From: a virus
IMG/VR virus record: IMGVR_UViG_3300037420_000837
Coordinates: 1-64,000 of that record
Reading direction: 5' to 3' (one strand)
Length of the DNA: 64,000 nucleotides
Positions within the stretch are counted from its first letter, which is position 1. Each line of letters begins with the position of its first letter. The translations under genes were made by a program, and so were the position numbers. This document shows positions 15,334 through 43,577 of the stretch, in pieces. The notes below the pieces were generated by a model that saw only the letters and a program-made list of their open reading frames with translations, was not told where the DNA came from and searched no databases.

Positions 15334-15413
15334 CGTAGGGCAATGTGGTGAAGCAGTCGGATACTTCTCGAAAAAGTAAACCCCCGGCTAGCGTTTGTTC
15401 CCATTGTCCTACG
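15334..15413 (+). ncRNA. structured RNA element, family copy A (candidate Y-RNA/YrlA-like)
   Basis: 12-bp closing stem CGTAGGGCAATG/CATTGTCCTACG; conserved 5' GGTG(A/T)AG..GGATACTTC and 3' CGTTTGTTCC shared with copies at 23034, 40418, 40497, 24953; internal TACTT-CTCGAAA-AAGTA hairpin. Confidence 0.5.
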
Positions 15414-23033: not shown

Positions 23034-23151
23034 GCGAGTGGTGTAGTAGACGGATACTTCTTTGGATAAGAAACCAGCGACGGCCTCCGAAAGGTGGCTG
23101 GCAAGGTAGGGGGTTCAAATCCCCCGCTTCCGTTTGCGCATGTTCCCTCGC
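23034..23151 (+). ncRNA. structured RNA element, family copy B with tRNA T-arm-like module (candidate Y-RNA/YrlA-like)
   Basis: closing GCGAG/CTCGC; conserved 5' TGGTGTAGTAGACGGATACTTC and 3' CGTTTGCGCATGTTCC; perfect T-arm GGGGG-TTCAAAT-CCCCC at 23109-23125. Confidence 0.5.
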
Positions 23152-23204: not shown

Positions 23205-24545
23205 GTGATGAAAGTCGTCTCGTACAAAGGCGATATGTCGACGATGGCTCAGGTAGAGCCGGGGATGTCGATTGAGTTGTACCCGAGCAAGGAGCTTGCG
23301 CGGGTGGTGCATGTGGATGCGAGCCGGATGTTTCCGCGAGGGAAGCTGGTGAGCATGGATGTCTGGCAAGGCCAGAAGCTGAACTCGTGGCAGTGGAATG
23401 TCAGGGATTTTCCACCTGAGGCCCCGGTCAAGGTGCTCAACGGGAAGATGGTGGAACTTCTCCTTGAGCGAGTCGGTAAGCAGATGGCTGACCAGAACAG
23501 GGTGACCACAATTATCAATCATCTGGGCATGGGCGTGAGTTTGGGCACGGACCCAGAGGTCTTTGTACGCAAGGGAGATGGGAGTTTATTGCCTGCGTTT
23601 GAGTTTCTGGGGCCGAAGCAGGGGAGTAGTGGGTACGAGTCGCCCTTCTGGGATGGCTTTCAGGCGGAGTTTACTACCTACTCCGGAGGGTGTATCGACG
23701 GGCAGACCACCTCGTGCAGGGCAGGATTGATGGAGGTTCTGCGCAGGGCGCGGAATGTGGACCCCAAGGCCAAGCTGGTGCTGGAGCCGGTGATTGAGGT
23801 TCCTACCGAGACCCTGAAGAAGTACGACAAGAAGTTCACACAGTTTGGATGCAGTCCGAGCATGAATGTGCATGGACTGAGCACGGTGCTGCCGGATGAC
23901 CACACGGAGGTCACCATTCGGCCAGCAGGGTTTCATTTGCACTTCGGTAACCCGATGCTGCAGATTCCCTACCACGCACGCAATGTGGTGAGGGCCTTGG
24001 ATGTGCTTGTGGGGCTGCCGTTCGTGGCCTTGATGGAAGGAATTGATGACCCAAGACGGAGGGCGTTGTATGGACTTCCCGGAGAGTTCCGGATGCCAGC
24101 TCATGGACTTGAGTACCGAACCCTTAGCTCCGCAGGGCTGTGTCATCCTGCCATCTATCAACTTGCTTTTGAGCTGGGAAGAATCGCTTGCCGAGTGGGA
24201 ACGCGGGGAGTGCTTCCCGTGTTGTTCAAGTATGACCCCAAGGAAGTAGCGGAGATAATCACCCGCACGGATGCAGGAACAGCACGCAAGTTCATGGCCC
24301 AGCACAAAGAGGCCTACGAGAAATGCGTGACCTATCGGTTTCAGGGGATGTATCACGGGAGCCTTGAGAGCAACAAATTTTCGTTCTGGCGAGGCATTGA
24401 AGGGGGCGTGGGGGCCTTGGTGAAAGACCCTCATAACCTTGAAAGCAACTGGGACTTGGATAGGTCCCGCCACGACGCTATGAGGTGTTCGAGATGGTCG
24501 CAGTTGGCAGAAAGAGTGGCAAACAGCAAGCAGCCGGTCTCGTAG
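23205..24545 (+). CDS. amidoligase-like protein, paralog 1 (GS-like carboxylate-amine ligase family, putative)
   Basis: shares GTDPEVFV and HLHFG motifs with paralogs at 28920 and 34791 (GADPEFVL/GGHVHLG; GCDPEVVC/GGHVWLD). Confidence 0.45.
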   Translation: MMKVVSYKGDMSTMAQVEPGMSIELYPSKELARVVHVDASRMFPRGKLVSMDVWQGQKLNSWQWNVRDFPPEAPVKVLNGKMVELLLERVGKQMADQNRVTTIINHLGMGVSLGTDPEVFVRKGDGSLLPAFEFLGPKQGSSGYESPFWDGFQAEFTTYSGGCIDGQTTSCRAGLMEVLRRARNVDPKAKLVLEPVIEVPTETLKKYDKKFTQFGCSPSMNVHGLSTVLPDDHTEVTIRPAGFHLHFGNPMLQIPYHARNVVRALDVLVGLPFVALMEGIDDPRRRALYGLPGEFRMPAHGLEYRTLSSAGLCHPAIYQLAFELGRIACRVGTRGVLPVLFKYDPKEVAEIITRTDAGTARKFMAQHKEAYEKCVTYRFQGMYHGSLESNKFSFWRGIEGGVGALVKDPHNLESNWDLDRSRHDAMRCSRWSQLAERVANSKQPVS

Positions 24546-24844
24546 CTGGGACCCCAGAGGTTGTCAGGTGTCCGGCCTGTGCAGGACGGGGATTCCCGAC
24601 TCTCGTGCAGGCCAAGGTCATCGACCCGCCGTGTCAGGTGTGTCGAGGGCAAGGCGTGATTCCGCTGGAGATTTGTGCCTGCGGAAGGTGCGCGGCGATA
24701 GTTCATCCCAGCCTTGGGGTGAGCTATTGCGGGCAAGACAAGTGTGCCGAGCAGCGGATTGGAGAACCTGTCCAAGGTAATTCCGCTGACGACATAATGT
24801 ATCAATGGGCGGGAGCCCTGATGGGGGATTTCTCCATCAACTAG
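24485..24844 (+). CDS. DnaJ-type zinc-finger (CxxCxGxG repeats) protein
   Basis: CPACAGRG, CQVCRGQG, CACGRC motifs. Confidence 0.45.
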   Translation: MFEMVAVGRKSGKQQAAGLVAGTPEVVRCPACAGRGFPTLVQAKVIDPPCQVCRGQGVIPLEICACGRCAAIVHPSLGVSYCGQDKCAEQRIGEPVQGNSADDIMYQWAGALMGDFSIN

Positions 24845-24952
24845 CAAGTTTGTAAGGTTTCTCCCTGAGGAGTAACGGAACGGACGCACCCTGCGCAAGC
24901 CAATCGCAGGACTTCGAGGCTCTTAGGGCCTGAGGGTTGGAGTTTCGGCCTT

Positions 24953-25086
24953 CGGAAGACCTCCGGTGGTGTCTGTCAAAGGGACGTTGAGAACGTACAA
25001 AGCTTAGCCCCACTGTGGGCGGGGCATTGGGCTAGGTCTCGGACCTGAGGATACACATCTGTTCGCAGATTGATTGCCTTTCCGAG
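24953..25086 (+). ncRNA. structured RNA element, degenerate family copy E
   Basis: 5' CCGGTGGTGTCTGTC and 3' CGCAGATTGATTGCCTTTCC resemble family consensus; closing CGGAAG/CTTTCCG. Confidence 0.3.
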
Positions 25087-25233
25087 TCTAACTTAGTCTG
25101 AGGGCCCCCCGGATAAACAAGGCTGCTAAGGTGTCCGGTGGAGACGGACTGGAGGCAGGGCGGGATTTGGATACCGTTCTGCGATGCTCCGAAGGGGAGA
25201 AAGTTGTACAGGAAAGGGGCTTCGAGGTCTGGT

Positions 25234-25303
25234 GGGGCTGTAGCTCAGCGTTAGAGCACTCGATAATAATCGAGAGGTCGCCGGTTCAATTCCGGTCAGC
25301 CCA
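25234..25303 (+). tRNA. tRNA-like gene with canonical D- and T-arms but 6-nt anticodon loop (TAATAA) and G1-A72 mismatch; possibly pseudo-tRNA or tRNA-mimic
   Basis: GGGGCTG-TA-GCTCAGCGTTAGAGC-A-CTCGA-TAATAA-TCGAG-AGGTC-GCCGGTTCAATTCCGGT-CAGCCC-A; no encoded CCA. Confidence 0.5.
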
Positions 25304-25308
25304 TTGAG

Positions 25309-25333
25309 CATCAGACGGTAGAAGCCCCCTTAC
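25309..25333 (+). repeat. 25-nt motif copy immediately after tRNA-like gene
   Basis: CATCAGACGGTAGAAGCCCCCTTAC. Confidence 0.85.
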
Positions 25334-25354
25334 TGAATCATTCGGAGGGGATTC

Positions 25355-25633
25355 ATGAAACAGTTTAGACACGAAGGCTGCAGATGCAAGCGTTACAAGC
25401 ACTGCGCAGGGTGTGGTGACCACTTCACGTTGAGCACCGCACAAGACGAGAACAAATTCTGCTCGATTCGCTGCGAAGGGAAAGCGAAGACCAATGGTGA
25501 CAAGAGGGGACATCGTCCTGTTAAAAGATTCTCATCCGCTGGTGCAAAGAAATCCGCAACTGGCCAAGCTTACGTGGGTCGCAGTGGGGGACCAAGACGA
25601 GACCGAGGAAGTTTACCTGCACAGGTACGATGA
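25355..25633 (+). CDS. small Cys-rich protein
   Basis: CRCKRYKHCAGCGDHF; GGAGG SD. Confidence 0.35.
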   Translation: MKQFRHEGCRCKRYKHCAGCGDHFTLSTAQDENKFCSIRCEGKAKTNGDKRGHRPVKRFSSAGAKKSATGQAYVGRSGGPRRDRGSLPAQVR

Positions 25634-25677
25634 GGAGTCGGGCAAACTCAAGGAGCTGATGTTCTCAGATATCAAAC

Positions 25678-26022
25678 ATGTCGTTCAAACAGGTCGTAGT
25701 TATCAATTCGGGGGTGGGGATGCGCAAGGGCAAGGTCGCGGTCCAGTCGTGCCACGCCGTAGTGGGGGCAATCCTGAACACTCCGGAGGATACTCTAAAC
25801 CGGTGGTTAGGCGAAGGAATGCCCAAGGTGACCCTCAAGGTACAGTCAGCGAAGGAGCTGATTGACCTATTTGAACAGTGTCGCGGTGCGATGCTTAATG
25901 CGTATCTGGTGAAGGACGCGGGCAAGACGCAAGTCAAGCCCGGGACGGTCACGGCGCTGGCTATCGGCCCAGCCAAGGTTGAGGACATCGACAAGATTAC
26001 GGGAAAGCTGAAGCTGTTATGA
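25678..26022 (+). CDS. peptidyl-tRNA hydrolase, PTH2 family
   Basis: MSFKQVVVINS..GKVAVQSCHA...DAGKTQV..GTVTALAIGP...ITGKLKLL matches PTH2 core pattern. Confidence 0.65.
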   Translation: MSFKQVVVINSGVGMRKGKVAVQSCHAVVGAILNTPEDTLNRWLGEGMPKVTLKVQSAKELIDLFEQCRGAMLNAYLVKDAGKTQVKPGTVTALAIGPAKVEDIDKITGKLKLL

Positions 26023-26666
26023 CGAAGAAAGAGTTGGATGGGCTGAAAGAGCTGTTGGAGGCGGAGTGGATTCATTATGACGCCACTTACAACATGCTCT
26101 GGTGGGGTGCAGAGCCGACGAAGCGCACGAAGGAAGAAATCCGGGAGCTGAAGGGTGAGGGGTATGCGAATTACTTCAACGTCCCCGGACAGGGGTACTT
26201 GTACGAGAATGATGTTCGGGTTCAGTACAAGATAACCGCGAGGCAGCATTCAGCACGGCTTGCTCCCAGTGGCGGACTTTCGCAACTCCCGGGATGTTGT
26301 GGGGTGGGAGTAGTGAATACCGTTGAGAGCGTGTTGTCGGGTATCCCCAAGAAAGTCAAGGGCCCTTTCTTGAGGTATTTTATCGAACGAAGCGCTTATG
26401 ACTTGAACATCGTAGCGGTCACTTCTCGCCAGAAGGAAGAGAAAGCTGTTATCGAGGCTTCAGGGTGCTTTGAGTTGATTGCCGTAGGGAAATCGCGGAT
26501 GGGTAGCTATCCCATCTATCTCTACAAGTACAACCAGAAAGAACACAAAGGCTTTGAAAAGCTTCAGGAGAAAGTGAACAACTCTTCTCCGAAGGAGGCT
26601 CCTAAAAGTGAGCCAGTTAGGAAGGTGGCTCCGAAGCCGCTTCTCCGGAGGAGACAAGTAGGATGA
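26019..26666 (+). CDS. hypothetical protein
   Basis: 215 aa ORF, start overlaps PTH2 stop. Confidence 0.45.
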   Translation: MTKKELDGLKELLEAEWIHYDATYNMLWWGAEPTKRTKEEIRELKGEGYANYFNVPGQGYLYENDVRVQYKITARQHSARLAPSGGLSQLPGCCGVGVVNTVESVLSGIPKKVKGPFLRYFIERSAYDLNIVAVTSRQKEEKAVIEASGCFELIAVGKSRMGSYPIYLYKYNQKEHKGFEKLQEKVNNSSPKEAPKSEPVRKVAPKPLLRRRQVG

Positions 26667-26839
26667 TTTGGGTGTTTCGTGGAGTTGGGATGTTTATGCT
26701 GGTGGCGAGTCTGTGGGTACTGACTCTGCCCCCGCATTTCATCACGAACGGGCATTTCAATTTTATTGGGATGCTGTGTGACCTGCTCGCATTGGGAGCG
26801 GTCTATCTCTGGACACGTGTGTTGTTGAACACGTGGTAA
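26663..26839 (+). CDS. small membrane protein (59 aa)
   Basis: hydrophobic; below ORF-track cutoff. Confidence 0.3.
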   Translation: MIWVFRGVGMFMLVASLWVLTLPPHFITNGHFNFIGMLCDLLALGAVYLWTRVLLNTW

Positions 26840-27040
26840 GTTTCCCGAGCCCACGACAGGGCAGGGGCTGTAGGGGCAGCTAATCCCCTAGGAGGTCTTC
26901 ACGACTCCGACATGCCAAGGGAGGTTCCTAACCAACCGATGGCTTGAGGTGAAACCTTAGCGCATCTTAGGAGGCCTATAGGAGTGTTGGAACGCTGAGA
27001 GCGTACGACTCAGTCCTGACTAAAAAAGTTCCATCACGCA

Positions 27041-27080
27041 AACGGGGCAACTGGGAGACGGTCAGCTCTGTCCCGTTTTA
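27041..27080 (+). terminator. putative rho-independent terminator
   Basis: AACGGGG...CCCCGTTTTAAAATTTTT imperfect stem plus T-runs. Confidence 0.4.
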
Positions 27081-27103
27081 AAATTTTTCGAGAAAGGGAA
27101 GCT

Positions 27104-27310
27104 ATGTGGAGGATGGTTCGGAGCCCCAAGGGGTTGATAGTCCTCGGGTTGTGTGTACTCAATGCGTGGGCGATTAACCGCGTGTTTGAGGTGGACTTCG
27201 AGTTCGACCCGGATGTGTGGTTGATATTGTTCGCCATCCTGTTTGGATTGGAGACTGTGTCTCTCTGGGGGCTCTACCATCTTCTGTTTTGGCTGTTGAG
27301 GGGTTTATGA
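27104..27310 (+). CDS. small membrane protein
   Basis: GAAAGGGAA SD then ATG; 68 aa, two TM. Confidence 0.4.
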   Translation: MWRMVRSPKGLIVLGLCVLNAWAINRVFEVDFEFDPDVWLILFAILFGLETVSLWGLYHLLFWLLRGL

Positions 27311-27720
27311 GCGAGGAAAAGAAAGAACAAGAAACACGTTATCGAGTGTTTGTCTACGGCACACTCAAGCGCGGAGGCAGGCTTCACGGGTGTATGGACA
27401 TGGAGGGGCCTAAGGGTGGCACCACGCGTTTCATCGACGAGTACACGCTCGGAGATGTCGAGATGTATAACCTTGGCTGGTACCCCGGGATTAAACAGAG
27501 AGCCGGTGGCAAGGTGCACGGCGAGCTCTACAGCGTGACTGAGGATGTACTCAAACGCTTGGATAGGGTTGAGGGAGCGCCGTTTCTCTACTCCCGCAAG
27601 GTCTTCAACGTGCCGTATAAGGGTGTGAAGATGGACATTCATACTTATGTCTTCAACGGCGAGGTCAACCCGAAGAACTTGATTGTTGATGGGGTGTGGA
27701 GGCCAGACCATGCTCGGTAA
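27307..27720 (+). CDS. gamma-glutamyl cyclotransferase (GGCT/AIG2-like)
   Basis: VFVYGTLKRG...GWYPG...GELY...LDRVEG...Y.R motifs. Confidence 0.6.
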   Translation: MSEEKKEQETRYRVFVYGTLKRGGRLHGCMDMEGPKGGTTRFIDEYTLGDVEMYNLGWYPGIKQRAGGKVHGELYSVTEDVLKRLDRVEGAPFLYSRKVFNVPYKGVKMDIHTYVFNGEVNPKNLIVDGVWRPDHAR

Positions 27721-28300
27721 AATACCGATGTGGTATTTCAAGGTGGTCAATCGTCCTTACGGGGCGCGGATGCCCAAGCGTGAGACGAAGGTGATGGACA
27801 TCGCGACAAAGTCGATTGTACCTATTCGGAGCCTCCATCAAACTCCGATTGGTTTTGTCCAGCCGCAAGGTATGGAGTCCCGCAAGAGCCACCAGCATGA
27901 ACGCCTACGGAGGCGTGGCAAAAACAAAAACATCGAGACCGGGAATCTGGGGCTGAGCGAATATCAGTTCTGGGTGGGCGTGAAAGGAGCTTCCACGCAG
28001 TTTGCGAGATGTCGAGCTTGCAATCAGGATACCTTCGGACCCAACGAGCGCAAGATGCACCACACGCTCTCTGGGCGGGAGGACCTTAGTTGTGCAGGTA
28101 AGTGCGTTATTATCTGTAACTTACTGGCCAAGGACAAGCAGTGCATCATCTGCGGGGACGGTGTGCACAAGAAGCGCTGGGGAGTCCCGATGTGTGCGCG
28201 CAAGGAGTGTGTCGAGAGCTTTATGTTTTCGCTTAGCCCGATGCCTTCGATGTGGATTCACGCGAGAGCCTTGGGGGCTCAACGAGGTTGGCAGAAATGA
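27710..28300 (+). CDS. Cys-rich protein
   Basis: several CxxC pairs (CRACNQ, CIICGDGVHKKRWGVPMCARKEC). Confidence 0.4.
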   Translation: MLGKIPMWYFKVVNRPYGARMPKRETKVMDIATKSIVPIRSLHQTPIGFVQPQGMESRKSHQHERLRRRGKNKNIETGNLGLSEYQFWVGVKGASTQFARCRACNQDTFGPNERKMHHTLSGREDLSCAGKCVIICNLLAKDKQCIICGDGVHKKRWGVPMCARKECVESFMFSLSPMPSMWIHARALGAQRGWQK

Positions 28301-28944
28301 AGAAGCATACCATTGACGGGATTTTCAAGAAGGGTCGGGGAGGGGTGGCTGCAAACGTGACAGGCACCATGCCAGCCCCGTTTCCGGGCAAATATCCCAC
28401 ACGGGTGTGCTTCAGTATCAAGGTGCACGGCAGACCCGAACGGATTGAGTACATCGGCAAGCCGAATGTGCAGATGATGTTGCGGTTCCATCGGTTTGTC
28501 GAGAGGGCGAGGTTGGATGGGTTTTTCTACTACGAGTTCGACCGCAAGAATATCGTAGCCCGGATGACGATGAGTTCTCGGGCCAGTTGCGAGAGGCTTC
28601 GGAGATACTATCATCCGTGGGCAGGGGTCTATAGCACCTACGAGGACTTCCTCAAGCCTTTCTATCGCAAGAAGGTTGGGGGAGCCACCTGCTACAGTCA
28701 ACACAAAGTCAACAAGATTTCGCAGGTCAATGAGTTCAAGGAGTGGCTGGTGAGCCAAGGCTTGGCTCCGGGGCATATCCTAACCAAGAAGCCTGCTCCG
28801 AAGAAACCGAAGACTATTGAGTGGCGCTACAACTGCGGGAATTGTGGGCATTCCTACCAGAGATTGAGTAAGCCCGAAAGTCTGGTAGTTCGTTGTAGCC
28901 TCTGTGGAGCATTCACAAGTTGGACGGAAAAGAAATCTCTATGA
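28297..28944 (+). CDS. hypothetical protein with C-terminal zinc ribbon
   Basis: CGNCGH...CSLCG at C-terminus. Confidence 0.4.
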   Translation: MKKHTIDGIFKKGRGGVAANVTGTMPAPFPGKYPTRVCFSIKVHGRPERIEYIGKPNVQMMLRFHRFVERARLDGFFYYEFDRKNIVARMTMSSRASCERLRRYYHPWAGVYSTYEDFLKPFYRKKVGGATCYSQHKVNKISQVNEFKEWLVSQGLAPGHILTKKPAPKKPKTIEWRYNCGNCGHSYQRLSKPESLVVRCSLCGAFTSWTEKKSL

Positions 28945-30455
28945 TTTGCACCGAAGAACGGAAAAAGTTTTTCACTGAGGCTGTGGGCAAGGGCTGGCGG
29001 GAGTTGAGCGAGGTTCCGGTGAACTTCCTCCCGGAGGTGCCCGAGCATGTCAAGCTGAAGTGGCTGAAGATTCTAAAGACCAGCAGGGTACCGAAGTATC
29101 CGGTGAACCCTCGACTGGTCAATCATTTTACTCTCGGGGCCGACCCCGAGTTTGTGTTGTATGACCCAACGAGCGGGTCCAGAATGGACGGGAATCGGTT
29201 GGGGCTGCGGACTGGCATGGCCTATGGGGTGGATTCCAATGGTCGTTTGCTGGAAATCAGACCCTGTCCCAGTCGGTTTGCCTTAGAGGTTCTGGCTAGC
29301 ACGCTGGTGACTCTTAGATGGTTCGCTCTGACGGTGCCTCAAGCTCTTGATTTCCAGTGGCGTTCGGGGGCATTTGTCTTGCGAGATGGTCTGGGAGGGC
29401 ACGTGCATCTGGGTAGGAAGACCGCGAACCGTAAGGTTGAAGTGGAAGCTCTGGACAGGGTGTTCCACCTATTGAACGGTTTAGGGGTGTTCCCGCAAGA
29501 TGAGTGCCAAGCACGGAGGGCAGGCGACCAGTTCAATCAGCGGTACGGACTAGACGGAGACATACGACTCCAAAAGCACGGGTATGAGTATCGGACCTTG
29601 CCAAGTTGGCTGGATTCCCCGTGGACGGCATATCTTTGCCTTGTATTGTCCAAGCTGGTCGCCCATGACCCTGCGATTTTTCACAACCTGCACAAGGGTA
29701 CGGTCTCGAAAGGGGGACAGACGAGGATTCTCAATCTGTTCCGAAAGTATGCAGGGCTGGATGACGATGCGGCGATTGCCGCGAGTGTACTGGAAAGACA
29801 TGGGTTGCCGAGCTTTCAGGGTGGCGACTTCAAGACTCGCTGGGGGTTGACCTACGCGAAGGATGCCCTGAAGGATAGGAATATCCAGATTCCGGGCAAC
29901 ATCAAGCCGAGTGCTGAGGAGATGCGGGAGCTGTTTTGTAGCTTGATGAACAATACTCCCTTGCACGCCACCATGCCTAAGGCTTACTGGCCGACACATC
30001 TGCCGAGTGGGTATCAGACGGTGTTGAGCTACACGGATACCACGAGGGTTGCGGGGCTGGGGGAAGTGCTAGCTGAGATGGTGGTCGAGTCGAAGCACGC
30101 CTTTCAATTCACGCACTCTGAGAGCATCACGGATTATTTGAGGGTGAGCTTGGATGTGGTCAAGAGCTTGCCGAAGAACTGGCGACAGCTTTGCGCGAAG
30201 GCGAGTGGCTTGCCGGAAGAGAGGTTCCGGGCCTATGACCAAGGCAAGAACGCGATTTTTATCGGGCGAGACGCGAGAACAAGCACGCACTTGAGAGCCG
30301 TGCGGAGGGCCTTGTTGAGTGAGGCTTTCCCGATTTGGAAGTTTGACGAGGTGAAGTCTGAGAGTTATTCGTGGTGGGTGGAGAAGAATACCCGCGAAAA
30401 GAAAGAGAAGCCTCGGAAGTTTGCCTCGAAGGTAATCTACGAGCGAGGCAAGTAG
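28920..30455 (+). CDS. amidoligase-like protein, paralog 2
   Basis: LGADPEFVLYD, LLEIRPCP, LGGHVHLGRK motifs shared with 23205 and 34791. Confidence 0.5.
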   Translation: MDGKEISMICTEERKKFFTEAVGKGWRELSEVPVNFLPEVPEHVKLKWLKILKTSRVPKYPVNPRLVNHFTLGADPEFVLYDPTSGSRMDGNRLGLRTGMAYGVDSNGRLLEIRPCPSRFALEVLASTLVTLRWFALTVPQALDFQWRSGAFVLRDGLGGHVHLGRKTANRKVEVEALDRVFHLLNGLGVFPQDECQARRAGDQFNQRYGLDGDIRLQKHGYEYRTLPSWLDSPWTAYLCLVLSKLVAHDPAIFHNLHKGTVSKGGQTRILNLFRKYAGLDDDAAIAASVLERHGLPSFQGGDFKTRWGLTYAKDALKDRNIQIPGNIKPSAEEMRELFCSLMNNTPLHATMPKAYWPTHLPSGYQTVLSYTDTTRVAGLGEVLAEMVVESKHAFQFTHSESITDYLRVSLDVVKSLPKNWRQLCAKASGLPEERFRAYDQGKNAIFIGRDARTSTHLRAVRRALLSEAFPIWKFDEVKSESYSWWVEKNTREKKEKPRKFASKVIYERGK

Positions 30456-30465
30456 GAGGACGAGA

Positions 30466-31497
30466 ATGTGTGGAATCGGTGGGTTTTACCGTTATGGTGA
30501 CACGCCAATAGACATTGACCAAATCAAGGCGCTGTTGTGTCAGTTGGAGCGCCGAGGCAATCACGCAACCGGGATTGCGTTGCAGGACGAGAAGGGGGAA
30601 GTGTTTGTGTGTAAGGCCCCGACTCCTGCGTGGAACTTTGCCGCAGGCAAGGAGTTTGAGGTCTTCATGACGAAGTACTTCAACGAGCGCACGAGGATTG
30701 CGCTGCTCCATACGCGGGCTGCGACTATCGGGAACCCGAATAAGAACGAAAACAATCACCCGATGTTTGCCGGGAAGGCCGCGATTGTCCACAACGGGAG
30801 TATCAACAACCACTCCTACTGGTTCAGCCAGAACAAAGACTGGGAGCGCAAGGCCGAGACAGACAGCGATGTCATTCGGGCGGTGGTGGATGAGCTAGGG
30901 ATTACTCCGGAGGCCATCAGGTATTTGAGTCGGTTCTCGGGAAGTGCGGCCATCATGGCGGTCAGTCCGGAGTATCCGGGGAAGCTGTTGGTAGGCCGGT
31001 CAGGCAAGCCTCTCACGATGGGCTGGAACGAGAAGGAGCAGATGCTCGCGTTCGCCTCTGAGAAGGAGATGCTCTACCACGCGACCAAGCCGCTCAAGGT
31101 GGCGCTGGGGTTTGTCTTTGCTGGCAATCGGAATGATTACATGTACTTCACCATCCCGGCAGACACGATGTACATCGTGGGCGAGAAGGGTAAGGAGTTC
31201 CACGATAACCTGCGGATTGCCAGCTATACCACAGGGGAGATGGTCTATCGGTGCAATGAGACTTACCACGAGACCAAGAAGCGCTTTGACCGGGAGACAC
31301 CTCCGCCCAAGCGAGAAGTAGTGACGGTCGATGAAGGGCCGTTGTATGTGAACTCCAAGCTGGACGTGGTGAGATGTCGGAATACCAAGTGCAACAACCT
31401 CATGGAGCTGGACGAGAAGCTCAAGAAGGAGCCACTCTGGGAGTTGGCTTGTGACAAGTGTGGAACCTACCTGATGGAGGAGCCGAAGAAGGCTTAG
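30466..31497 (+). CDS. class-II (Ntn) glutamine amidotransferase domain protein
   Basis: MCGIGGF N-terminal nucleophile Cys2; AGGAGGA SD. Confidence 0.65.
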   Translation: MCGIGGFYRYGDTPIDIDQIKALLCQLERRGNHATGIALQDEKGEVFVCKAPTPAWNFAAGKEFEVFMTKYFNERTRIALLHTRAATIGNPNKNENNHPMFAGKAAIVHNGSINNHSYWFSQNKDWERKAETDSDVIRAVVDELGITPEAIRYLSRFSGSAAIMAVSPEYPGKLLVGRSGKPLTMGWNEKEQMLAFASEKEMLYHATKPLKVALGFVFAGNRNDYMYFTIPADTMYIVGEKGKEFHDNLRIASYTTGEMVYRCNETYHETKKRFDRETPPPKREVVTVDEGPLYVNSKLDVVRCRNTKCNNLMELDEKLKKEPLWELACDKCGTYLMEEPKKA

Positions 31498-31761
31498 GGG
31501 ATGAAGAAGAAGCATCGTGAGAAGGGTTTCACGGCGTTCGAGTGGGTGGGGCTGCCGTGTAAGCCGGTGCCGAAAACGAAACGAGAGAAACGTGAAAAAG
31601 CAGACGATTCCCGGCAAGGGACTGGGAAAGGTGTTCACTCTGTGCCTTATCGGGAGCAGGGTAAGTAAGCATAAGAGACGCAGGAGTTTCTGTGTCAGGT
31701 GTGGGCATTGTTTCAAGTGTGGCTGGGCACACCCTCACACGGGAAGGAACGGGCACGTAGG

Positions 31762-32214
31762 ATGAAAGAGCTTGTTGAGAAGTACAAGGAACAAATCACG
31801 GCCATTCTCGGGCACAACCGATGGCGGTTGGGAAATGTAGACTACAAAGTCAACTACAGCGACAAGCTTGACCTCGGGAAGTATGCCTTGTGGGTTCGGG
31901 TGAACTCAGTTGACCCGACAGAGACCAAGGTCGCAAGCTTTGAGCTGCACCCGATGATTAACTGCTGCGGGATTTGTGTGTCTTCGAGAGCTGAAGTGCA
32001 CAAGGATTTTCAAGGTAACGGTCTCGGGACGCTTCTCAACTCTTTTCGGGTGGATGTTGCACGCTATCTCGGGTACGGAGTCCTGCTTTGCACGGACGTG
32101 TCAACCAACGAACCTCAGCGCAAGATTCTTAAAGCCAACGGGTGGAAGGACGTGTATCAGTTCTTAAACCCGCGAACGAAGAACAGGGTATTCATCTCGG
32201 TAATAAATCTATGA
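31762..32214 (+). CDS. GNAT-fold N-acetyltransferase-like protein
   Basis: VHKDFQGNGLGTLL acetyl-CoA-binding-like motif. Confidence 0.5.
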   Translation: MKELVEKYKEQITAILGHNRWRLGNVDYKVNYSDKLDLGKYALWVRVNSVDPTETKVASFELHPMINCCGICVSSRAEVHKDFQGNGLGTLLNSFRVDVARYLGYGVLLCTDVSTNEPQRKILKANGWKDVYQFLNPRTKNRVFISVINL

Positions 32215-33044
32215 TTCGACTGGTAGTCGCAAAAGGCAGCAGACCCACGGGAAACACTCTCTCAAACCTGCTGAGAACCGAACACAACCTCCAGCTCGGA
32301 GAAGCTGGGCGAGGAGTCGTGAGTTATGGAGTTCCATACGGAGGAAATCTCCCAGCCCTCAACGCAAACGCAGGACGACTGGATAAGTTGGAACAAGGCC
32401 TGCGCTTGGCATCTGCTGGGGTTAGCGTTGTTCCACATCTCGATTCTGCTGCTGCTCTCCGCCACAATGGGGTTCTCTTGGCTCGCAAGCGCAATCATGT
32501 TGGCGGTCGGGACATTATGCTGGTACTTGAGCCTGAGGACATCCCGCACCGACTCCGAGCAGGAGCCCAGTTCTTTACTCCTTATATCCGAAGCCAAGCC
32601 GAGTATCGAGTCTGGACCTACCGAGGACAACATCTGGGAACTTATCAGAAGGTCCTAGCCCATCCGGAGAGATACAAGAAAGTGGGGCGGAACTATGACA
32701 ACGGCTTTGCGTTCCAGCTTGTCCGAGAGGCGCAGATACCACGAGCGGCGGTGGAACTGGCGAGTCAAGCCGTTGAGGCTTTGGCTCTCGATTTCGGCGC
32801 GGTCGATATCTTACACGGACGGGACGGAAGGTTCTACGTGTTGGAAGTTAACACTGCACCGGGGGTCGAAGGGGAAGGCAGGCAGGTCATTCAAGCGCTT
32901 GCTCGTAAAATCGCTCGCTGGGAAGAGTTAGGGTATCCGGCTAGGAATGGAAGCCCGGAGGCTGCGGCTAAGAAGGCTGCCAAGGAGAAGAGGCCCCTAA
33001 AGGACTTAGCAGGAGAGCGGAGGACACAACTCCGGAGGTGGTGA
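32211..33044 (+). CDS. ATP-grasp ligase (RimK-like)
   Basis: GAVDILHGRDGRFYVLEVNTAPG ATP-grasp C-terminal signature; ATG overlaps upstream TGA. Confidence 0.65.
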   Translation: MIRLVVAKGSRPTGNTLSNLLRTEHNLQLGEAGRGVVSYGVPYGGNLPALNANAGRLDKLEQGLRLASAGVSVVPHLDSAAALRHNGVLLARKRNHVGGRDIMLVLEPEDIPHRLRAGAQFFTPYIRSQAEYRVWTYRGQHLGTYQKVLAHPERYKKVGRNYDNGFAFQLVREAQIPRAAVELASQAVEALALDFGAVDILHGRDGRFYVLEVNTAPGVEGEGRQVIQALARKIARWEELGYPARNGSPEAAAKKAAKEKRPLKDLAGERRTQLRRW

Positions 33045-33047
33045 GAG

Positions 33048-33686
33048 TTGAGTACTAAAGTTCGCATGATTTACCGAGACGCCCGGGGAGGCATAACCTC
33101 CGGGCGTTTTGCTGTGAATGCCATTAGGACGGAAGCATCGAGGAATGGCTTGATGCTGCCGGATGCTTTGGCGAGGACAGCGCCTGTCTGGAGACAGATG
33201 CAGTGGCTTGTAGAGCACATGCCAGACAGAGGGGTGATTGTCACTCCAGCGTTGAAGATTTGGCGCGAGGCTCGGAGGATTCCGGGCTATCGCAGTGAGT
33301 ATATCCAAGGGTGTAAGCGGAGTGGACTGAGCCAGAAGCTCCGGACAGCTGAGGAACAACAGAGATACATTGAAGCCCGAGAGCGCAGGGACAGGGTGAG
33401 ATTGGGGCTGAGGTTTGAGACTCCGGCTCCTAGGTTGCGAATTGACCCCTTGAATGGGCGGGTGGTGCTTGGGAATACCCGTAGGGCGCAACCGCCAAGG
33501 CAAGTGCAAACGGTATTGGAGCGTAACGCCGAGAGAGCAAGACGTGAGCAAGTTCGGTTTACAACCCCTGATGCTGCTGCGACGCTAACTGCCGAGCAAA
33601 TCAGGCGGATGCAAATTGTGCAAGACGCGTTGAATACCGCAACAGGTTCTCCAACATGGACAGTCCCCAGAACCGAGGAATTATAA
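33048..33686 (+). CDS. hypothetical basic protein
   Basis: 212 aa, Arg-rich. Confidence 0.4.
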   Translation: MSTKVRMIYRDARGGITSGRFAVNAIRTEASRNGLMLPDALARTAPVWRQMQWLVEHMPDRGVIVTPALKIWREARRIPGYRSEYIQGCKRSGLSQKLRTAEEQQRYIEARERRDRVRLGLRFETPAPRLRIDPLNGRVVLGNTRRAQPPRQVQTVLERNAERARREQVRFTTPDAAATLTAEQIRRMQIVQDALNTATGSPTWTVPRTEEL

Positions 33687-34271
33687 ATGGAAACCCCGGA
33701 GGCATATATCACACAGGTGGTACGGAGGATAACCCCTCAAGGTCCCATTTGGAAGTGTAAGGTTCACGGGGATATTCCGGAAGCTTACATGCTCAGGGGT
33801 GGAGTGGTGGTGCCGTATTGTGGACAGTGCCTGCTCCAGACCCCTGAGGTGAGCTTTGGCAAGGTGGTGTTAAAGAAACGCTGGAGACCGTTTGGAGGTA
33901 GCTCCCGAGGCTACATGTTTCGGGACGGCAAATACCACTGCAGACAGTGTTTCGAGGCCTTTGAGTACATCACCGCTTACGACAACCATCTCGAAGGATG
34001 TGTCGGCAGAGGAATCGGGAGCTTTCGAGTCAACGACAGACGCAGGGTTTCAGCTGACCCAAGCACAGCAAGCCGAATCACCTCGCAAGAAGGTGACCAC
34101 TACTGCACCCTCAGAAACTGCTGGAAGGTCTCCTGCCTGTTCCCGTGTGCAAGCTGCAACCAACACTTTTGCATTGCTCACATGGCTCATTATGCAGTTG
34201 ACACTCCGCTCACAAATCTCTGCGAAGTCTGCGCCAGTGTTGAAGAGTACGCAACCAAGGTCACCCCATGA
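33687..34271 (+). CDS. Cys-rich zinc-binding protein (possible anti-sigma/regulator)
   Basis: multiple CxxC; stop overlaps sigma-factor start. Confidence 0.4.
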   Translation: METPEAYITQVVRRITPQGPIWKCKVHGDIPEAYMLRGGVVVPYCGQCLLQTPEVSFGKVVLKKRWRPFGGSSRGYMFRDGKYHCRQCFEAFEYITAYDNHLEGCVGRGIGSFRVNDRRRVSADPSTASRITSQEGDHYCTLRNCWKVSCLFPCASCNQHFCIAHMAHYAVDTPLTNLCEVCASVEEYATKVTP

Positions 34272-34837
34272 GTGAACAGAATAAGGCGTTTGAAACATGG
34301 AAGCAAGCCAAGGGAACTGAAACCGAGAAAGCAGCCGAGGAGAGGCTGATTAAAGCCCTGAGGAGATATGCCACAAAAATCTGTTGGAACATTCTCAAAG
34401 AAGCCAATCAAGACGTTGTCTCAGCTTCGGTCTTTCAAGCCCTTCAATTCGCTGATGGATTCCGAGGAGACGGAAAATTCTCTACGTGGTTCTATTCTGT
34501 CGTTAAACGGAATTGTCTCTCTGCCATTAGGAAGCGTAAGCGCAGGGCTGAGATTGGAATTGATGACCTGTCTGGGGCGCAGGTCAAACAGCTACCTGTA
34601 CGAGAGGTATCAGACGACGCCATCGCCCTCCGAGAGGTTACCGGAAGGCTGGCTGCTCACGAGCGTGAGTTTCTTGAGTTGAAGGCACACGGGGCGAGCG
34701 ACGAGGAGATTGCTCGGGCGTTGAACATCAAAGAAGGGACTGTGAGGGTGCGGTGGAGTAGGCTTCGGAAGAAGTTGCGAGGGGCGTTGAATGGCGAGGA
34801 AATCAAACTTTCTGAACGCGTTTCTGGTGGGATGTGA
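34268..34837 (+). CDS. sigma-70 family (ECF-like) sigma factor
   Basis: region 2 (FSTWFYSVVKRNCLSAIRKRKR) and region 4 HTH (EEIARALNIKEGTVRVRWSRLRKKLR). Confidence 0.7.
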   Translation: MSEQNKAFETWKQAKGTETEKAAEERLIKALRRYATKICWNILKEANQDVVSASVFQALQFADGFRGDGKFSTWFYSVVKRNCLSAIRKRKRRAEIGIDDLSGAQVKQLPVREVSDDAIALREVTGRLAAHEREFLELKAHGASDEEIARALNIKEGTVRVRWSRLRKKLRGALNGEEIKLSERVSGGM

Positions 34838-35558
34838 CCCAGAGGTCGTGTGTGTGGATGCAGCGGGGAATCAGGTGCATGTGGACAGGACTATCACCAA
34901 GGATGGGCAGATAGGCTGGGACCACGGCGGAAGGGTGATGGAGTTTAGACCGACCCCGCACAAGGGTACCTACACCTTGGTCAAGGATATCAAGGAGCTG
35001 ATTACAGGAGCTCCGGCGGGCATCCGCAAGTATCGTTGGTTGTCGGGAGCTTATGTCAAGTTCCCCAACGAAGCAGGAGAGAGTCTCGGCGGCCATGTCT
35101 GGTTGGACTTGAACCCGAACTCGGCTATCCAGTCCACCAGAGTCAAGGCGTTAGACCGACTGACCGAGAGCCTTGAGAGACTGGATATCCTGCCTCGGCA
35201 GGAGTGCATTGTCAGGCGGAGAGGAAAGTACGGGAAGTTTGCAGACGTGCGCACGGTGCAGGGGGACAGGCCGAGGTTTGAGTATCGCACGATGGCGAGT
35301 TGGATGTATAACCCCGCGACTGCGTTCCTGTGCCTGACGGCTGCCAAGATGGCTGCGTATGACCCCGAAGGGGCAGCTAAAGCTCTCAAGCCTGAAGAGG
35401 CGAGCTGGAAGGGTTTGACGGAGTGGTTGGAGGGTTATGCCGAAGACTGCAACGTAGCGAGGTTGAGCGAGAAAGTATTTCCAAAAGGTCTCAAGAAAGT
35501 TCAGTACCACCCGGATGTGGATGTCAAAGAGGCGTGGGCTGGGAAACTGGGGTTCTAG
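34791..35558 (+). CDS. amidoligase-like protein, paralog 3 (short)
   Basis: VGCDPEVVCVD, VMEFRPTP, LGGHVWLDLN motifs. Confidence 0.5.
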   Translation: MARKSNFLNAFLVGCDPEVVCVDAAGNQVHVDRTITKDGQIGWDHGGRVMEFRPTPHKGTYTLVKDIKELITGAPAGIRKYRWLSGAYVKFPNEAGESLGGHVWLDLNPNSAIQSTRVKALDRLTESLERLDILPRQECIVRRRGKYGKFADVRTVQGDRPRFEYRTMASWMYNPATAFLCLTAAKMAAYDPEGAAKALKPEEASWKGLTEWLEGYAEDCNVARLSEKVFPKGLKKVQYHPDVDVKEAWAGKLGF

Positions 35559-38459: not shown

Positions 38460-38487
38460 CCCCCTCTTCGGAGGGGGATTTTTATTT
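38460..38487 (+). terminator. rho-independent terminator or 5'-UTR stabilising hairpin
   Basis: CCCCCTC-TTCG-GAGGGGG then ATTTTTATTT; sits between motif copy and rsr SD. Confidence 0.55.
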
Positions 38488-40417: not shown

Positions 40418-40487
40418 GCAGGGATGGTGTAGAGAACGGTTACTTCTGACTCTTAAACCCGTACCGTTTTCGTTTGTTCCTCCCTGC
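40418..40487 (+). ncRNA. structured RNA element, family copy C1 (candidate Y-RNA-like), 7 nt after methyltransferase stop
   Basis: closing GCAGGGA/TCCCTGC; conserved 5' TGGTGTAGAGAACGGTTACTTC and 3' CGTTTGTTCC; inner AACGGT/ACCGTT stem. Confidence 0.5.
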
Positions 40488-40496: not shown

Positions 40497-40625
40497 GGGA
40501 GTGGTGTAGTAGACAGTTACTTCCCTTATAAGGACGATGGCGTTGGTTCGAGTCCAACCAGAGACGAGAGTCTCTGTAGCTCAGTGGTAGAGCACGACCG
40601 TTACTGTTTGCGATTGTTCCCTCCC
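40497..40625 (+). ncRNA. structured RNA element, family copy C2 with tRNA T-arm-like and D-arm-like modules (candidate YrlA-like)
   Basis: closing GGGAG/CTCCC; 5' GTGGTGTAGTAGACAGTTACTTC, 3' GTTTGCGATTGTTCC; T-arm GTTGG-TTCGAGT-CCAAC (40542-40558); canonical D-arm TAGCTCAGTGGTAGAGC (40577-40593); hairpins CCTTATAAGG and AGAGAC-GAGA-GTCTCT. Confidence 0.55.
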
Positions 40626-40704
40626 GAAACACTGTAACAAAAACCCACCCGAGGGCGTCTTATAGACGCCCGCTCCGGGGAGTCCTTTCCCGGAATGGAG
40701 CATA

Positions 40705-43476: not shown

Positions 43477-43495
43477 TTGCGAGGCTGCTGCAACC

Positions 43496-43520
43496 CTAAG
43501 GGGGCTTCTTAGGTCTGATG
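43496..43520 (-). repeat. 25-nt motif copy (reverse), left arm of inverted pair
   Basis: CTAAGGGGGCTTCTTAGGTCTGATG. Confidence 0.85.
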
Positions 43521-43577
43521 GTACAGGGCGTGGTAGCTGATACTCAAAGTACACGAGTCGCTAAATGCAGCTTCTAT

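What the first reader, a model, noticed from the sequence alone, without database searches (positions are those of the whole stretch)
25234..25303. tRNA-like gene with a 6-nt anticodon loop and mismatched acceptor top
It has a perfect D-arm, a T-arm (GCCGG-TTCAATT-CCGGT) and an acceptor stem, so it looks like a real tRNA. The anticodon arm, however, is CTCGA-TAATAA-TCGAG, a 6-nt loop (or 4 bp plus an 8-nt loop), and position 1-72 is G-A. It cannot decode normally. It may be a tRNA mimic related to the Y-RNA-like elements, a pseudo-tRNA serving as an att core for the integrase, or a frameshift-suppressor-like tRNA. A degenerate family element (24953-25086) lies directly upstream and a motif copy directly downstream.
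Basis: seen in the sequence. Interest (0 to 1): 0.55.

Follow-up and report, generated by a model that had tools for sequence, protein, structure and literature searches.

The report
Non-decoding tRNA-Ile look-alike in a phage
A phage that also carries a Ro60 gene and several Y-RNA-like elements has one gene copied from an isoleucine tRNA whose anticodon loop is closed, so it cannot read codons; it is either a structural tRNA mimic or a decaying tRNA gene.

Summary
Window 25234-25304(+) is the only tRNA hit in the window (ARAGORN "tRNA-???"; Rfam tRNA 50.7 bits). It has a 6-nt anticodon loop and a G1·A72 mismatch, and four other assemblies match it exactly, so this is not an assembly error.

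Its body is a tRNA-Ile(GAU): eleven phage tRNA-Ile genes share its D-arm and anticodon-stem sequence but have 7-nt loops. Here the arm folds into a 6-bp stem (CUCGAU/AUCGAG) with an AAUA tetraloop. One C is missing from the acceptor 3' strand, and CCA is not encoded.

Leader and trailer are inverted copies of a 26-nt motif found about 16 times in the window. They can pair (-28.9 kcal/mol, stronger than in 232 control phage tRNAs) and extend the acceptor stem.

The gene lies in a 510-nt ORF-free stretch with two degenerate Y-like elements, upstream of a PTH2 gene. The phage is a distant SU10/phiEco32-like type with a Ro60 gene and a YrlA-like RNA.

No relative closer than about 40-50% protein identity was found, so conservation could not be tested.

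Best reading: a non-decoding tRNA mimic (0.42). Main rival: a decaying tRNA gene (0.35). The att-core and frameshift-suppressor readings are not supported.

The parts
25234..25304 (+). tRNA-Ile(GAU)-derived cloverleaf. The acceptor has 6 of 7 pairs (G1·A72). The D-arm is GCTC/AGCGTTA/GAGC and the T-arm is GCCGG/TTCAATT/CCGGT. The variable region is AGGTC. CCA is not encoded.
   Evidence: ARAGORN; Rfam tRNA 50.7 bits; MFE cloverleaf, z -4.15; alignment to 9 phage tRNA-Ile(gat) genes
25259..25274 (+). Closed 'anticodon' arm: CUCGAU-AAUA-AUCGAG. It can be read as 5 bp plus a 6-nt loop UAAUAA, or as 6 bp plus a tetraloop.
   Evidence: Read directly from the sequence; RNAfold gives -6.4 kcal/mol and 86% of the ensemble as 6 bp plus a 4-nt loop. 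Homologous tRNA-Ile genes have TTGATAA or CCGATAA here.
25213..25234 (-). Degenerate inverted copy of the window motif (CACCAGAC-ctcgaa-GCCCC, read on the minus strand). On the plus-strand RNA it is the 5' leader GGGGCUUC-GAG-GUCUGGUG. Its last base is G1 of the tRNA-like.
   Evidence: Motif scan; predicted pairing with the trailer
25309..25331 (+). Exact copy of the window motif, CATCAGAC-ggtagaa-GCCCCC-TT. It starts 5 nt after the tRNA-like and 46 nt before the ATG at 25355. It is the 3' strand of the predicted leader-trailer helix.
   Evidence: 0 mismatches; folds
24953..25086 (+). Degenerate Y-RNA-like family element. The 5' arm is CGGTGGTGTCTGTCAAAGGGAC and the 3' arm is CTGTTCGCAGATTGATTGCCTTTCCGAG.
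   Evidence: Compared by eye only with elements at 15343-15400, 23036-23150, 40422-40480 and 40499-40640. No Rfam hit. Weak evidence.
25136..25195 (+). Second, short Y-like family element (CCGGTGGAGACGGAC ... ACCGTTCTGCGATGCTCCG).
   Evidence: Compared by eye. Rfam gives only a chance-level CRISPR-DR56 hit here. Weak evidence.
24845..25354 (+). 510-nt stretch with no called gene. It holds the two Y-like elements and the tRNA-like. It lies between the 119-aa ORF that follows the COOH-NH2 ligase and the 92-aa zinc-ribbon ORF that precedes PTH2.
   Evidence: Gene calls on the identical contig L023 leave 2836-3345 empty; fold z -3.6

Best explanation
The element is a copy of a phage-type tRNA-Ile(GAU) gene that can no longer act as an adaptor but still has an intact tRNA body.

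Shown:
- The anticodon loop has lost one base and G34 has become A. The arm therefore closes into a 6-bp stem with an AAUA tetraloop.
- The acceptor 3' strand is one C short, which leaves G1 unpaired.
- CCA is not encoded.
- Every other helix and most tertiary-contact nucleotides are present (U8, A14, G15:C48, A21, T54-T55-C56, A58, G53:C61).

Predicted:
- The 5' leader and 3' trailer are inverted copies of the phage's 26-nt repeated motif.
- They form two 8-bp helices that prolong the acceptor stem and leave AUUGAG unpaired where ACCA would sit.

Inferred:
- No promoter of its own was detected, so it is probably made by read-through from the ligase operon as part of an RNA that also carries two degenerate Y-like elements.
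- It is then probably recognised as a tRNA shape rather than read as a tRNA. One route is by tRNA-processing enzymes (RNase P, 3' trimming, CCA addition), which would cut the upstream non-coding RNAs from the downstream zinc-ribbon/PTH2 mRNA.
- The other route is as a tRNA-like module for the same kind of partner that binds the tRNA-like domains of bacterial Y RNAs.

Which partner it has is not known.
For: - It is a real tRNA-shaped element.
- It is not an assembly error: four other assemblies are identical.
- It derives from tRNA-Ile(GAU). The pattern GTTAGAGCACTCGA-N5-8-TCGAGAGGTC hits 11 IMG/VR contigs, all at tRNA-Ile(gat) genes with 7-nt loops.
- The short D-loop AGCGTTA is not a defect. 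It occurs in normal tRNA-Thr, Val, Asn and Ile genes.
- The anticodon arm is closed.
- The leader-trailer duplex is -28.9 kcal/mol. In 232 tRNAs of phage tRNA arrays the mean is -9.8 (sd 4.6, best -27.6), and 4 of 2000 shuffles match it. The 120-nt element folds with z = -5.64.
- The context is rich in tRNA-derived RNA. There is a Ro60/TROVE gene. A YrlA-like RNA scores 35.5 bits at E 2.5e-6 in a 321-nt search, below Rfam's gathering score of 69. Family elements are seen at 15343, 23036 and 40422. PTH2 lies 370 nt downstream.
- There is a published precedent. D. radiodurans Yrn1 is drawn with a tRNA-like domain whose 'anticodon arm' has 5 bp and a 6-nt loop, and M. smegmatis YrlA is cut by RNase P and receives CCA (PMC4201824).
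Against: - No relative carries the element, so there is no conservation or covariation evidence at all. The nearest relatives are 38% (ligase), 49% (Ro60) and 54% (PTH2), and none is syntenic with DNA available.
- There are no expression data.
- The changes relative to tRNA-Ile are as few as random decay would give: one loop deletion, one loop substitution and one stem deletion.
- The leader-trailer helix is made only of two copies of a motif that also occurs alone upstream of genes. That motif may be a DNA-level promoter for the phage sigma factor. In that case the pairing is a by-product, and the tRNA-like sits between two divergent promoters.
- Mismatches between paired motif copies show no strand bias towards G·U (14 against 12).
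- The leader does not resemble the 5' arm of the phage's Y-like family.
- Rfam YrlA does not hit the element.
Confidence: 0.42

Rival explanations
1. It is a decaying tRNA gene with no function. Phages of this group carry a lone tRNA in the early region. Here a tRNA-Ile has acquired small deletions and is drifting.
For: - It has three lesions of a kind that inactivate a tRNA: anticodon loop -1 nt, G34A, and CCCC to CCC in the acceptor 3' strand. CCA is not encoded.
- Aberrant tRNAs recur in unrelated phage-like tRNA arrays that share the same D-arm. L045 has a 6-nt loop and G1·A72, L049 a 6-nt loop, L048 a stem indel and L042 a 5-nt loop.
- The distant relative SU7 has a single tRNA-Arg upstream of the same amidoligase module.
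- L004 has a normal-looking tRNA-Ile next to its ligase.
- No sigma-70-type promoter or terminator was found nearby.
Against: - Apart from the lost top acceptor pair, all 20 stem pairs are intact, and the cloverleaf dominates the ensemble.
- The loop change produces a perfect 6-bp palindromic stem rather than a ragged loop.
- The leader-trailer pairing is stronger than in any of 232 control tRNAs.
- The gene sits in one of the few long non-coding stretches of a compact genome, next to other structured elements.
Confidence: 0.35
2. It is a decoy or competitor for a host tRNA-targeting defence or a tRNA-binding enzyme. An uncleavable tRNA-Ile shape would soak up an anticodon nuclease or similar effector.
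For: - The body keeps several tRNA-Ile features: U12-A23, C29-G41 and A at the discriminator position if the 6-bp reading is taken. That list of identity elements is from my own knowledge of E. coli tRNA-Ile and was not tested here. The anticodon loop, the usual cleavage target, is removed.
- Phage tRNAs with altered anticodon loops that escape anticodon nucleases are documented (PMC10264068, PMC11464382, PMC11555353; titles and abstracts seen).
- Several related phage tRNA-Ile genes carry C33 instead of U33.
Against: The published cases are functional tRNAs with 7-nt loops that still decode. No nuclease specific for tRNA-Ile is implicated here. The host is unknown and there are no experimental data.
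Confidence: 0.1
3. It is a working tRNA that decodes in an unusual way, by reading a doublet, by -1 frameshifting, or as Ile with a 6-nt loop.
For: The T-arm, D-arm and acceptor are tRNA-grade. A PTH2 peptidyl-tRNA hydrolase gene is adjacent. Tertiary-contact nucleotides are mostly present.
Against: - The predicted arm is 6 bp with a 4-nt loop, so a U-turn and a three-base anticodon are not possible.
- G1 is unpaired.
- Opening to 4 bp plus an 8-nt loop would cost two A-U pairs.
- Known frameshift suppressors have enlarged loops (established knowledge, not tested here).
Confidence: 0.06
4. It is a pseudo-tRNA that serves as the attP core for the phage integrase.
For: A tyrosine integrase is present (phrog_1, E 3e-49), and tRNA genes are common integration targets.
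Against: - The integrase is 25 kb away on the other strand.
- The element is a whole cloverleaf, not a 3' fragment.
- The 26-nt anticodon arm and the 22-nt T-arm plus acceptor 3' strand have no exact match in 185,579 bacterial and archaeal species genomes.
Confidence: 0.02

Closest known systems
Phage-encoded tRNA-Ile(GAU) genes in tRNA arrays of large phages (IMG/VR contigs L029-L039)
   Same: The D-arm 3' half, the anticodon stem and the variable region are identical (GTTAGAGCACTCGA ... TCGAGAGGTC). The overall cloverleaf and T-loop are of the same type.
   Different: Those genes have a 9-nt D-loop, a 7-nt loop with anticodon GAU, a fully paired 7-bp acceptor and an encoded ACCA. This one has a 7-nt D-loop, a 6-nt (or 4-nt) loop, G1·A72 and no CCA. 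It also has a strongly pairing leader and trailer.
Bacterial and phage Y RNAs with tRNA-like domains: YrlA (Rfam RF02553) and D. radiodurans Yrn1 (Chen et al. 2014, PMC4201824)
   Same: - It is a non-decoding RNA that keeps the T-arm, D-arm and acceptor-like helix of a tRNA, in a genome with a Ro60 orthologue.
- Yrn1 is drawn with a 5-bp 'anticodon arm' and a 6-nt loop.
- A long helix formed by the 5' and 3' flanks is predicted here too.
- A bona fide YrlA-like RNA exists elsewhere in this window.
   Different: - It gives no Rfam YrlA hit.
- The cloverleaf is in normal rather than permuted order.
- It lies 13 kb from Ro60, whereas Chen et al. found nearly all YrlA candidates within 4 kb.
- The flanking helix does not carry the GNCGAAN0-1G motif and does not resemble the 5' arm of this phage's own Y-like family.
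tRNA-like processing signals such as MALAT1 mascRNA and gammaherpesvirus-68 tRNA-like/miRNA transcripts (recalled from memory, not tested here)
   Same: These are tRNA-shaped elements that are not aminoacylated, in which the anticodon arm is dispensable. Their role is to be cut by RNase P or RNase Z and so define the ends of neighbouring RNAs. The position of this element between non-coding elements and an mRNA fits that role.
   Different: Those are eukaryotic or eukaryotic-virus systems. Here cleavage is only inferred, and leader-trailer pairing could hinder RNase P.
Lone tRNA genes of phiEco32/SU10/SU7-like podophages (Gordonclarkvirinae)
   Same: There is a single tRNA-type gene on the early/middle strand, upstream of or within the COOH-NH2 ligase / amidoligase / ATP-grasp / gamma-glutamyl cyclotransferase module. 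SU10-type portal and adaptor proteins are present.
   Different: SU7 carries a gene annotated as tRNA-Arg. Protein identities to this phage are only about 24%. Those phages have no Ro60 or Y-like RNAs annotated.

Membership tests
tRNA (Rfam RF00005, canonical elongator tRNA) | Cloverleaf that scores above the family gathering threshold | tested here: met
   50.7 bits against a gathering score of 29, full-length model match 1-71. ARAGORN calls it at default settings.
tRNA (Rfam RF00005, canonical elongator tRNA) | 7-nt anticodon loop with U33 and a three-base anticodon | tested here: not met
   The loop is UAAUAA (6 nt) and is predicted to close to 6 bp plus AAUA. The sequence is identical in four other assemblies.
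tRNA (Rfam RF00005, canonical elongator tRNA) | 7-bp acceptor stem with positions 1 and 72 paired | tested here: not met
   GGGGCUG pairs with CAGCCCA only over 6 bp, leaving G1 opposite A.
tRNA (Rfam RF00005, canonical elongator tRNA) | Conserved tertiary-contact nucleotides: U8, A14, R15:Y48, G18-G19, T54-Psi55-C56, A58 | tested here: inconclusive
   All are present except that the D-loop has one G instead of two. The same D-loop occurs in normal-looking tRNAs.
tRNA (Rfam RF00005, canonical elongator tRNA) | Aminoacylation and use on the ribosome | not testable with these tools
   This needs acid-gel Northern blots or tRNA sequencing of infected cells.
tRNA-Ile(GAU) | Body sequence shared with tRNA-Ile(GAU) genes | tested here: met
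   All 11 IMG/VR hits to its D-arm and anticodon-stem pattern are tRNA-Ile(gat).
tRNA-Ile(GAU) | Anticodon GAU | tested here: not met
   Position 34 is A and the loop is one base short.
YrlA (Rfam RF02553) | Match to the YrlA covariance model | tested here: not met
   There is no YrlA hit at E <= 10 in 24000-26500. By contrast, 40535-40596 scores 35.5 bits.
YrlA (Rfam RF02553) | Permuted order: T-arm, then a closed acceptor-like stem-loop, then D-arm, inside a stem made by the RNA's two ends | tested here: not met
   The order here is the normal tRNA order, and the anticodon arm is retained.
YrlA (Rfam RF02553) | Encoded within about 4 kb of the Ro60 gene on the same strand (Chen et al. 2014) | tested here: not met
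   It is on the same strand but 13.2 kb upstream of Ro60 at 38500-39894.
YrlA (Rfam RF02553) | GNCGAAN0-1G motif near the 5' end | tested here: not met
   The leader has CUUCGAGG, which differs at two fixed positions. The phage's own Y-like elements also fit this motif poorly, so the test is weak.
Yrn1-type Y RNA (D. radiodurans) | tRNA-like domain with a 5-bp 'anticodon arm' and a 6-nt loop, carried on a long stem made by the 5' and 3' ends | tested here: inconclusive
   The arm and loop size match the description in PMC4201824, and a long flanking helix is predicted. The RNA ends are unknown, and the helix consists of a motif that has another possible role.
Yrn1-type Y RNA (D. radiodurans) | Binding by Ro60/Rsr | not testable with these tools
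   This needs immunoprecipitation or gel shift with the phage Ro60.
attP core of a tRNA-targeting integrase | Adjacent to the integrase gene and identical to the 3' part of a host tRNA gene | tested here: not met
   The integrase is at 50963-51796 on the minus strand. No exact match was found in 185,579 species genomes for two diagnostic segments.
Frameshift-suppressor tRNA | Enlarged (8-nt) anticodon loop with a four-base anticodon | tested here: not met
   The loop is reduced, not enlarged. An 8-nt alternative requires breaking two predicted pairs.

The most novel reading that the evidence does not exclude
The 120-nt unit 25213-25332 is a stand-alone Y-RNA-type molecule caught at an early stage of evolution from a tRNA. 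It would be an almost intact tRNA-Ile whose anticodon arm has been sealed and whose acceptor stem has been extended by a protein- or RNase III-binding helix built from the phage's repeated motif. It would work with the phage Ro60 and the YrlA-like RNAs. That would give a direct intermediate between tRNAs and Y RNAs, and a second, unpermuted architecture for phage tRNA mimics.
Probability: 0.12. Interest if true: 0.7.

Novelty: new variant of a known kind. Interest (0 to 1): 0.38.

Why it matters
If it is functional, it would show that phages with a Ro60/Y-RNA system also keep nearly complete but non-decoding tRNA copies. That would give a concrete candidate for how tRNA-like Y-RNA modules arise from tRNA genes. 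It would also add a small tRNA mimic, easy to test, to the list of phage RNAs that engage host tRNA enzymes or defences.

If it is only a decaying gene, it is an ordinary pseudo-tRNA. Its main use would then be as a caution that annotation pipelines report such genes as 'tRNA-???'.

Tried and rejected
**1. Searches for copies of the element**
- A loop-specific pattern in IMG/VR gave three chance hits inside coding sequence.
- The T-arm plus acceptor pattern gave no hit in IMG/VR.
- A D-arm pattern gave only unrelated tRNAs in IMG/VR and in JGI metagenomes.
- Two patterns gave no hit in GTDB genomes.

**2. Searches for relatives of the phage through neighbouring proteins**
- Ligase: 19 IMG/VR loci at 39% identity or less. 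Only L004 is partly syntenic, and it carries a normal-looking tRNA-Ile.
- In the 5.8-billion-protein database the next-best ligase is 38% identical. It sits on a syntenic contig whose DNA could not be fetched.
- Ro60: one locus at 49%, not otherwise related and with no tRNA or YrlA.
- PTH2: 54% or less, in non-syntenic contigs.
- Cultured phages: 30% or less.
- Conservation and covariation therefore could not be tested.

**3. Sequencing or assembly error.** Rejected.

**4. Vertebrate Y RNA similarity.** The motif GGUCUGAUGG resembles the vertebrate GGUCCGAUGG (recalled from memory). Rfam Y_RNA does not hit the best motif hairpin; only generic hairpin families do.

**5. RNA-level selection on paired motif copies.** Differences between paired copies are G·U-compatible on the plus strand 14 times and on the minus strand 12 times, which is not informative.

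**6. The motif elsewhere.** The one IMG/VR hit is an ordinary terminator in an unrelated contig.

**7. Relaxed ARAGORN (80% threshold).** It gave 57 calls in 64 kb, too noisy to use, although several calls fall on the Y-like elements.

**8. Sigma-70 promoter and terminator scan around the element.** Nothing convincing was found.

Full report
**Observation**

ARAGORN finds one tRNA-type gene in the 64-kb window, at 25234-25304(+). It cannot name the gene because the anticodon loop has six bases. Rfam's tRNA model matches over its full length with 50.7 bits (gathering score 29, E 6e-8 for the window), with one deletion in the anticodon loop.

The cloverleaf is the minimum-free-energy structure (60% of the ensemble, z = -4.15). 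RNAfold pairs the first and last loop bases, so the arm becomes CUCGAU/AUCGAG with an AAUA tetraloop.

That test fails. Contigs from four other samples that cover the gene (two JGI, two Logan) are 100% identical to the window.

**What it derives from**

The pattern GTTAGAGCACTCGA-N5-8-TCGAGAGGTC hits eleven IMG/VR contigs. Every hit is a tRNA-Ile(GAU) gene in a phage tRNA array, with loop TTGATAA or CCGATAA. Relative to these genes, the window element differs in four ways:
- Its D-loop is shorter by two bases.
- Its anticodon loop has lost one base and has A instead of G34.
- Its acceptor 3' strand reads CAGCCC instead of the CAGCCCC that would pair with GGGGCUG.
- It lacks an encoded CCA.

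The short D-loop is not a defect. The same AGCGTTA loop occurs in otherwise normal tRNA-Thr, Val, Asn and Ile genes in viral and metagenomic contigs. The real lesions are therefore the closed anticodon arm and the unpaired G1.

In the same metagenome scan, four of nine tRNAs with this D-arm were also aberrant. L045 has a 6-nt loop and G1·A72, L049 a 6-nt loop, L048 a stem indel and L042 a 5-nt loop. None is related to this phage. Such genes therefore recur in phage-like tRNA arrays.

**Surroundings**

The window is most of a roughly 70-kb phage genome. The genome has SU10-type portal and adaptor proteins, a terminase, an integrase and its own sigma factor.

The plus strand carries a module of three phiEco32-type COOH-NH2 ligases, a gamma-glutamyl cyclotransferase, a glutamine amidotransferase and an ATP-grasp enzyme. 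This module is syntenic with the one in phage SU7, which has a lone tRNA-Arg upstream.

The tRNA-like lies in a 510-nt stretch with no called gene (24845-25354). On one side is a small Cys-rich ORF that follows the first ligase. On the other is a 92-aa zinc-ribbon ORF followed by a PTH2 peptidyl-tRNA hydrolase (Pfam E 8.5e-37).

The phage also encodes a Ro60/TROVE protein at 38500-39894. Just downstream of it, at 40499-40640, is an RNA whose tRNA-like module matches Rfam YrlA. The match scores 35.5 bits (E 2.5e-6 in a 321-nt search), which is below the gathering score of 69. Shorter elements with the same 5' and 3' arms lie at 15343-15400, 23036-23150 and 40422-40480. By eye, two degenerate ones lie at 24953-25086 and 25136-25195, directly upstream of the tRNA-like.

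**The flanks**

A 26-nt motif, CATCAGAC-N6-8-GCCCCC-TTAGG, occurs about 16 times in the window. A looser version gave 19 matches where 2.4 were expected. An exact copy starts 5 nt after the tRNA-like. A degenerate inverted copy ends exactly at G1.

On the plus-strand RNA these two copies pair as GGGGCUUC/GAAGCCCC and GUCUGGUG/CAUCAGAC. This extends the acceptor stem and leaves AUUGAG unpaired (z = -5.64 for the 120-nt unit). The duplex energy is -28.9 kcal/mol. That exceeds the value for all 232 tRNAs taken from phage tRNA arrays (mean -9.8, best -27.6), and only 4 of 2000 shuffles reach it.

The meaning of this pairing is uncertain. The motif also occurs singly, 30-70 nt upstream of start codons, in the orientation of the genes. 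In phiEco32 and SU10 the phage sigma factor recognises a single short motif 6-8 nt upstream of the transcription start (PMC4281155). By analogy, CATCAGAC could be such a promoter element, with the start at GCCCCC.

On that reading the tRNA-like sits between divergent promoters and is made only by read-through from the ligase operon. Other inverted motif pairs (10912/11180, 38238/38428, 43520/43578, 47741/47873, 56149/56493) enclose unrelated inserts. Differences between paired copies show no bias towards G·U on either strand.

**Explanations**

I could find no relative of this phage that carries the element. Selection on the structure therefore cannot be assessed, and the verdict rests on anatomy and context.

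The reading I favour, at 0.42, is a non-decoding tRNA mimic. The tRNA core is intact. The one arm that matters only for decoding has been sealed. The element sits among other tRNA-derived RNAs in a phage that has a Ro60 gene. Bacterial Y RNAs offer a direct precedent: Yrn1 has a 5-bp 'anticodon arm' with a 6-nt loop, and M. smegmatis YrlA is cut by RNase P and receives CCA (PMC4201824).

The most concrete mechanism is recognition by tRNA-processing enzymes. These would separate the upstream non-coding elements from the downstream mRNA. An alternative is use as a tRNA-shaped binding module. Both are inferences.

The main rival, at 0.35, is a plain decaying tRNA gene. The number and kind of lesions fit this equally well, and so does the recurrence of aberrant tRNAs in phage arrays.

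A decoy for tRNA-targeting defences (0.10) and unusual decoding (0.06) cannot be excluded. The att-core idea (0.02) is contradicted by three things: the distance to the integrase, the complete cloverleaf, and the absence of any matching tRNA segment in 185,579 species genomes.

**Comparison with known families**

The element is tRNA-derived and passes the Rfam tRNA threshold, but it fails two defining features of a working tRNA. It is not a YrlA: there is no model hit, the order is unpermuted, and it lies 13 kb from Ro60. It resembles the published drawing of Yrn1 in arm and loop size and in having a long terminal helix, but Ro60 binding is untestable here.

I rate it a new variant of a known kind, namely phage tRNA-derived non-decoding RNA or pseudo-tRNA. 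Interest is moderate (0.38) because the case rests on a single sequence without expression or conservation data.

Noticed in passing
window 15343-15400, 23036-23150, 40422-40480, 40499-40640 (all +): A family of Y-RNA-like elements shares a 5' arm (GAGTGGTGTAGTAGACGGATACTTC) and a 3' arm (CCGTTTGCG..TGTTCCCTC). The longest lies just downstream of the Ro60 and methyltransferase genes. Its T-arm, closed acceptor and D-arm match Rfam YrlA at 35.5 bits, below the gathering score.
   Followed up: partly
window 40499-40566 (+): The 5' half of the YrlA-like element looks like a second degenerate tRNA, with a 7-nt loop CUUAUAA (anticodon UAU, Ile). Rfam tRNA gives 20.5 bits, and relaxed ARAGORN calls it tRNA-Ile(tat). 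This suggests the Y-like RNA was built from two tandem tRNA copies.
   Followed up: no
window: minus-strand copies at 1537, 10912, 23188, 25234, 38238, 43520, 47741, 56493, 62532; plus-strand copies at 11180, 15092, 25309, 38428, 43578, 47873, 56149: A 26-nt motif, CATCAGAC-N6-8-GCCCCC-TTAGG, occurs about 16 times. Copies in gene orientation lie 30-70 nt upstream of start codons. Six pairs are inverted and can form 25-30-bp hairpins (43485-43615 folds with z = -5.2). It may be a promoter for the phage sigma factor, by analogy with phiEco32/SU10, or an RNA stem. This is unresolved.
   Followed up: partly
window 38460-38487 (+): A strong terminator-like hairpin with a U-tract (CCCCCTCTTCGGAGGGGGATTTTTATTT) lies between the motif copy at 38428 and the Ro60 start codon at 38500. 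That leaves no room for a promoter after it.
   Followed up: no
window 23205-35558 (+): An amidoligase module is present: three phiEco32-type COOH-NH2 ligases (23205, 28920, 34791), GGACT (27217), a glutamine amidotransferase (30466) and an ATP-grasp enzyme (32142). PTH2 (25678-26022) is embedded in it, and a sigma factor lies at 34268-34837. Apart from PTH2 and the sigma factor, the module is syntenic with that of phage SU7.
   Followed up: partly
window 47732-47872 (+): A 46-aa zinc-ribbon ORF (MSDAKVSETQIYPCPACGQ...CHHCGYQEAL) fills the insert of the inverted motif pair 47741/47873. Its ATG lies inside the minus-strand motif copy, and its stop codon abuts the plus-strand copy.
   Followed up: no
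window 44908-47364 (+): A family A DNA polymerase carries an N-terminal uracil-DNA glycosylase superfamily domain.
   Followed up: no
window 24907-24925 and 25216-25232 (+): The leader of the tRNA-like (GGGCTTCGAGGTCTGG) is repeated about 310 nt upstream as GGACTTCGAGGCTCTTAGG, at the start of the ORF-free stretch.
   Followed up: no
L045 388-459; L049 6627-6700 and 6700-6840: Unrelated metagenomic contigs carry tRNA genes with the same D-arm and 6-nt anticodon loops. L045 has TTTACA, G1·A72 and an ACCA end. L049 has CACTAA with a normal acceptor, followed by what look like D-arm-less tRNA-like genes.
   Followed up: partly
L004 5245-5321; L030 3939-4015; L032 637-713: Several phage tRNA-Ile(GAU) genes have C33 instead of the near-universal U33 (loop CCGATAA). 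One of them lies next to the ligase homologue of the most syntenic, though distant, relative.
   Followed up: no
window 52292-60007 (-): A 2571-aa ORF matches only phrog_9854 (unknown function). It contains a convergent pair of motif copies at 56149(+) and 56493(-).
   Followed up: no
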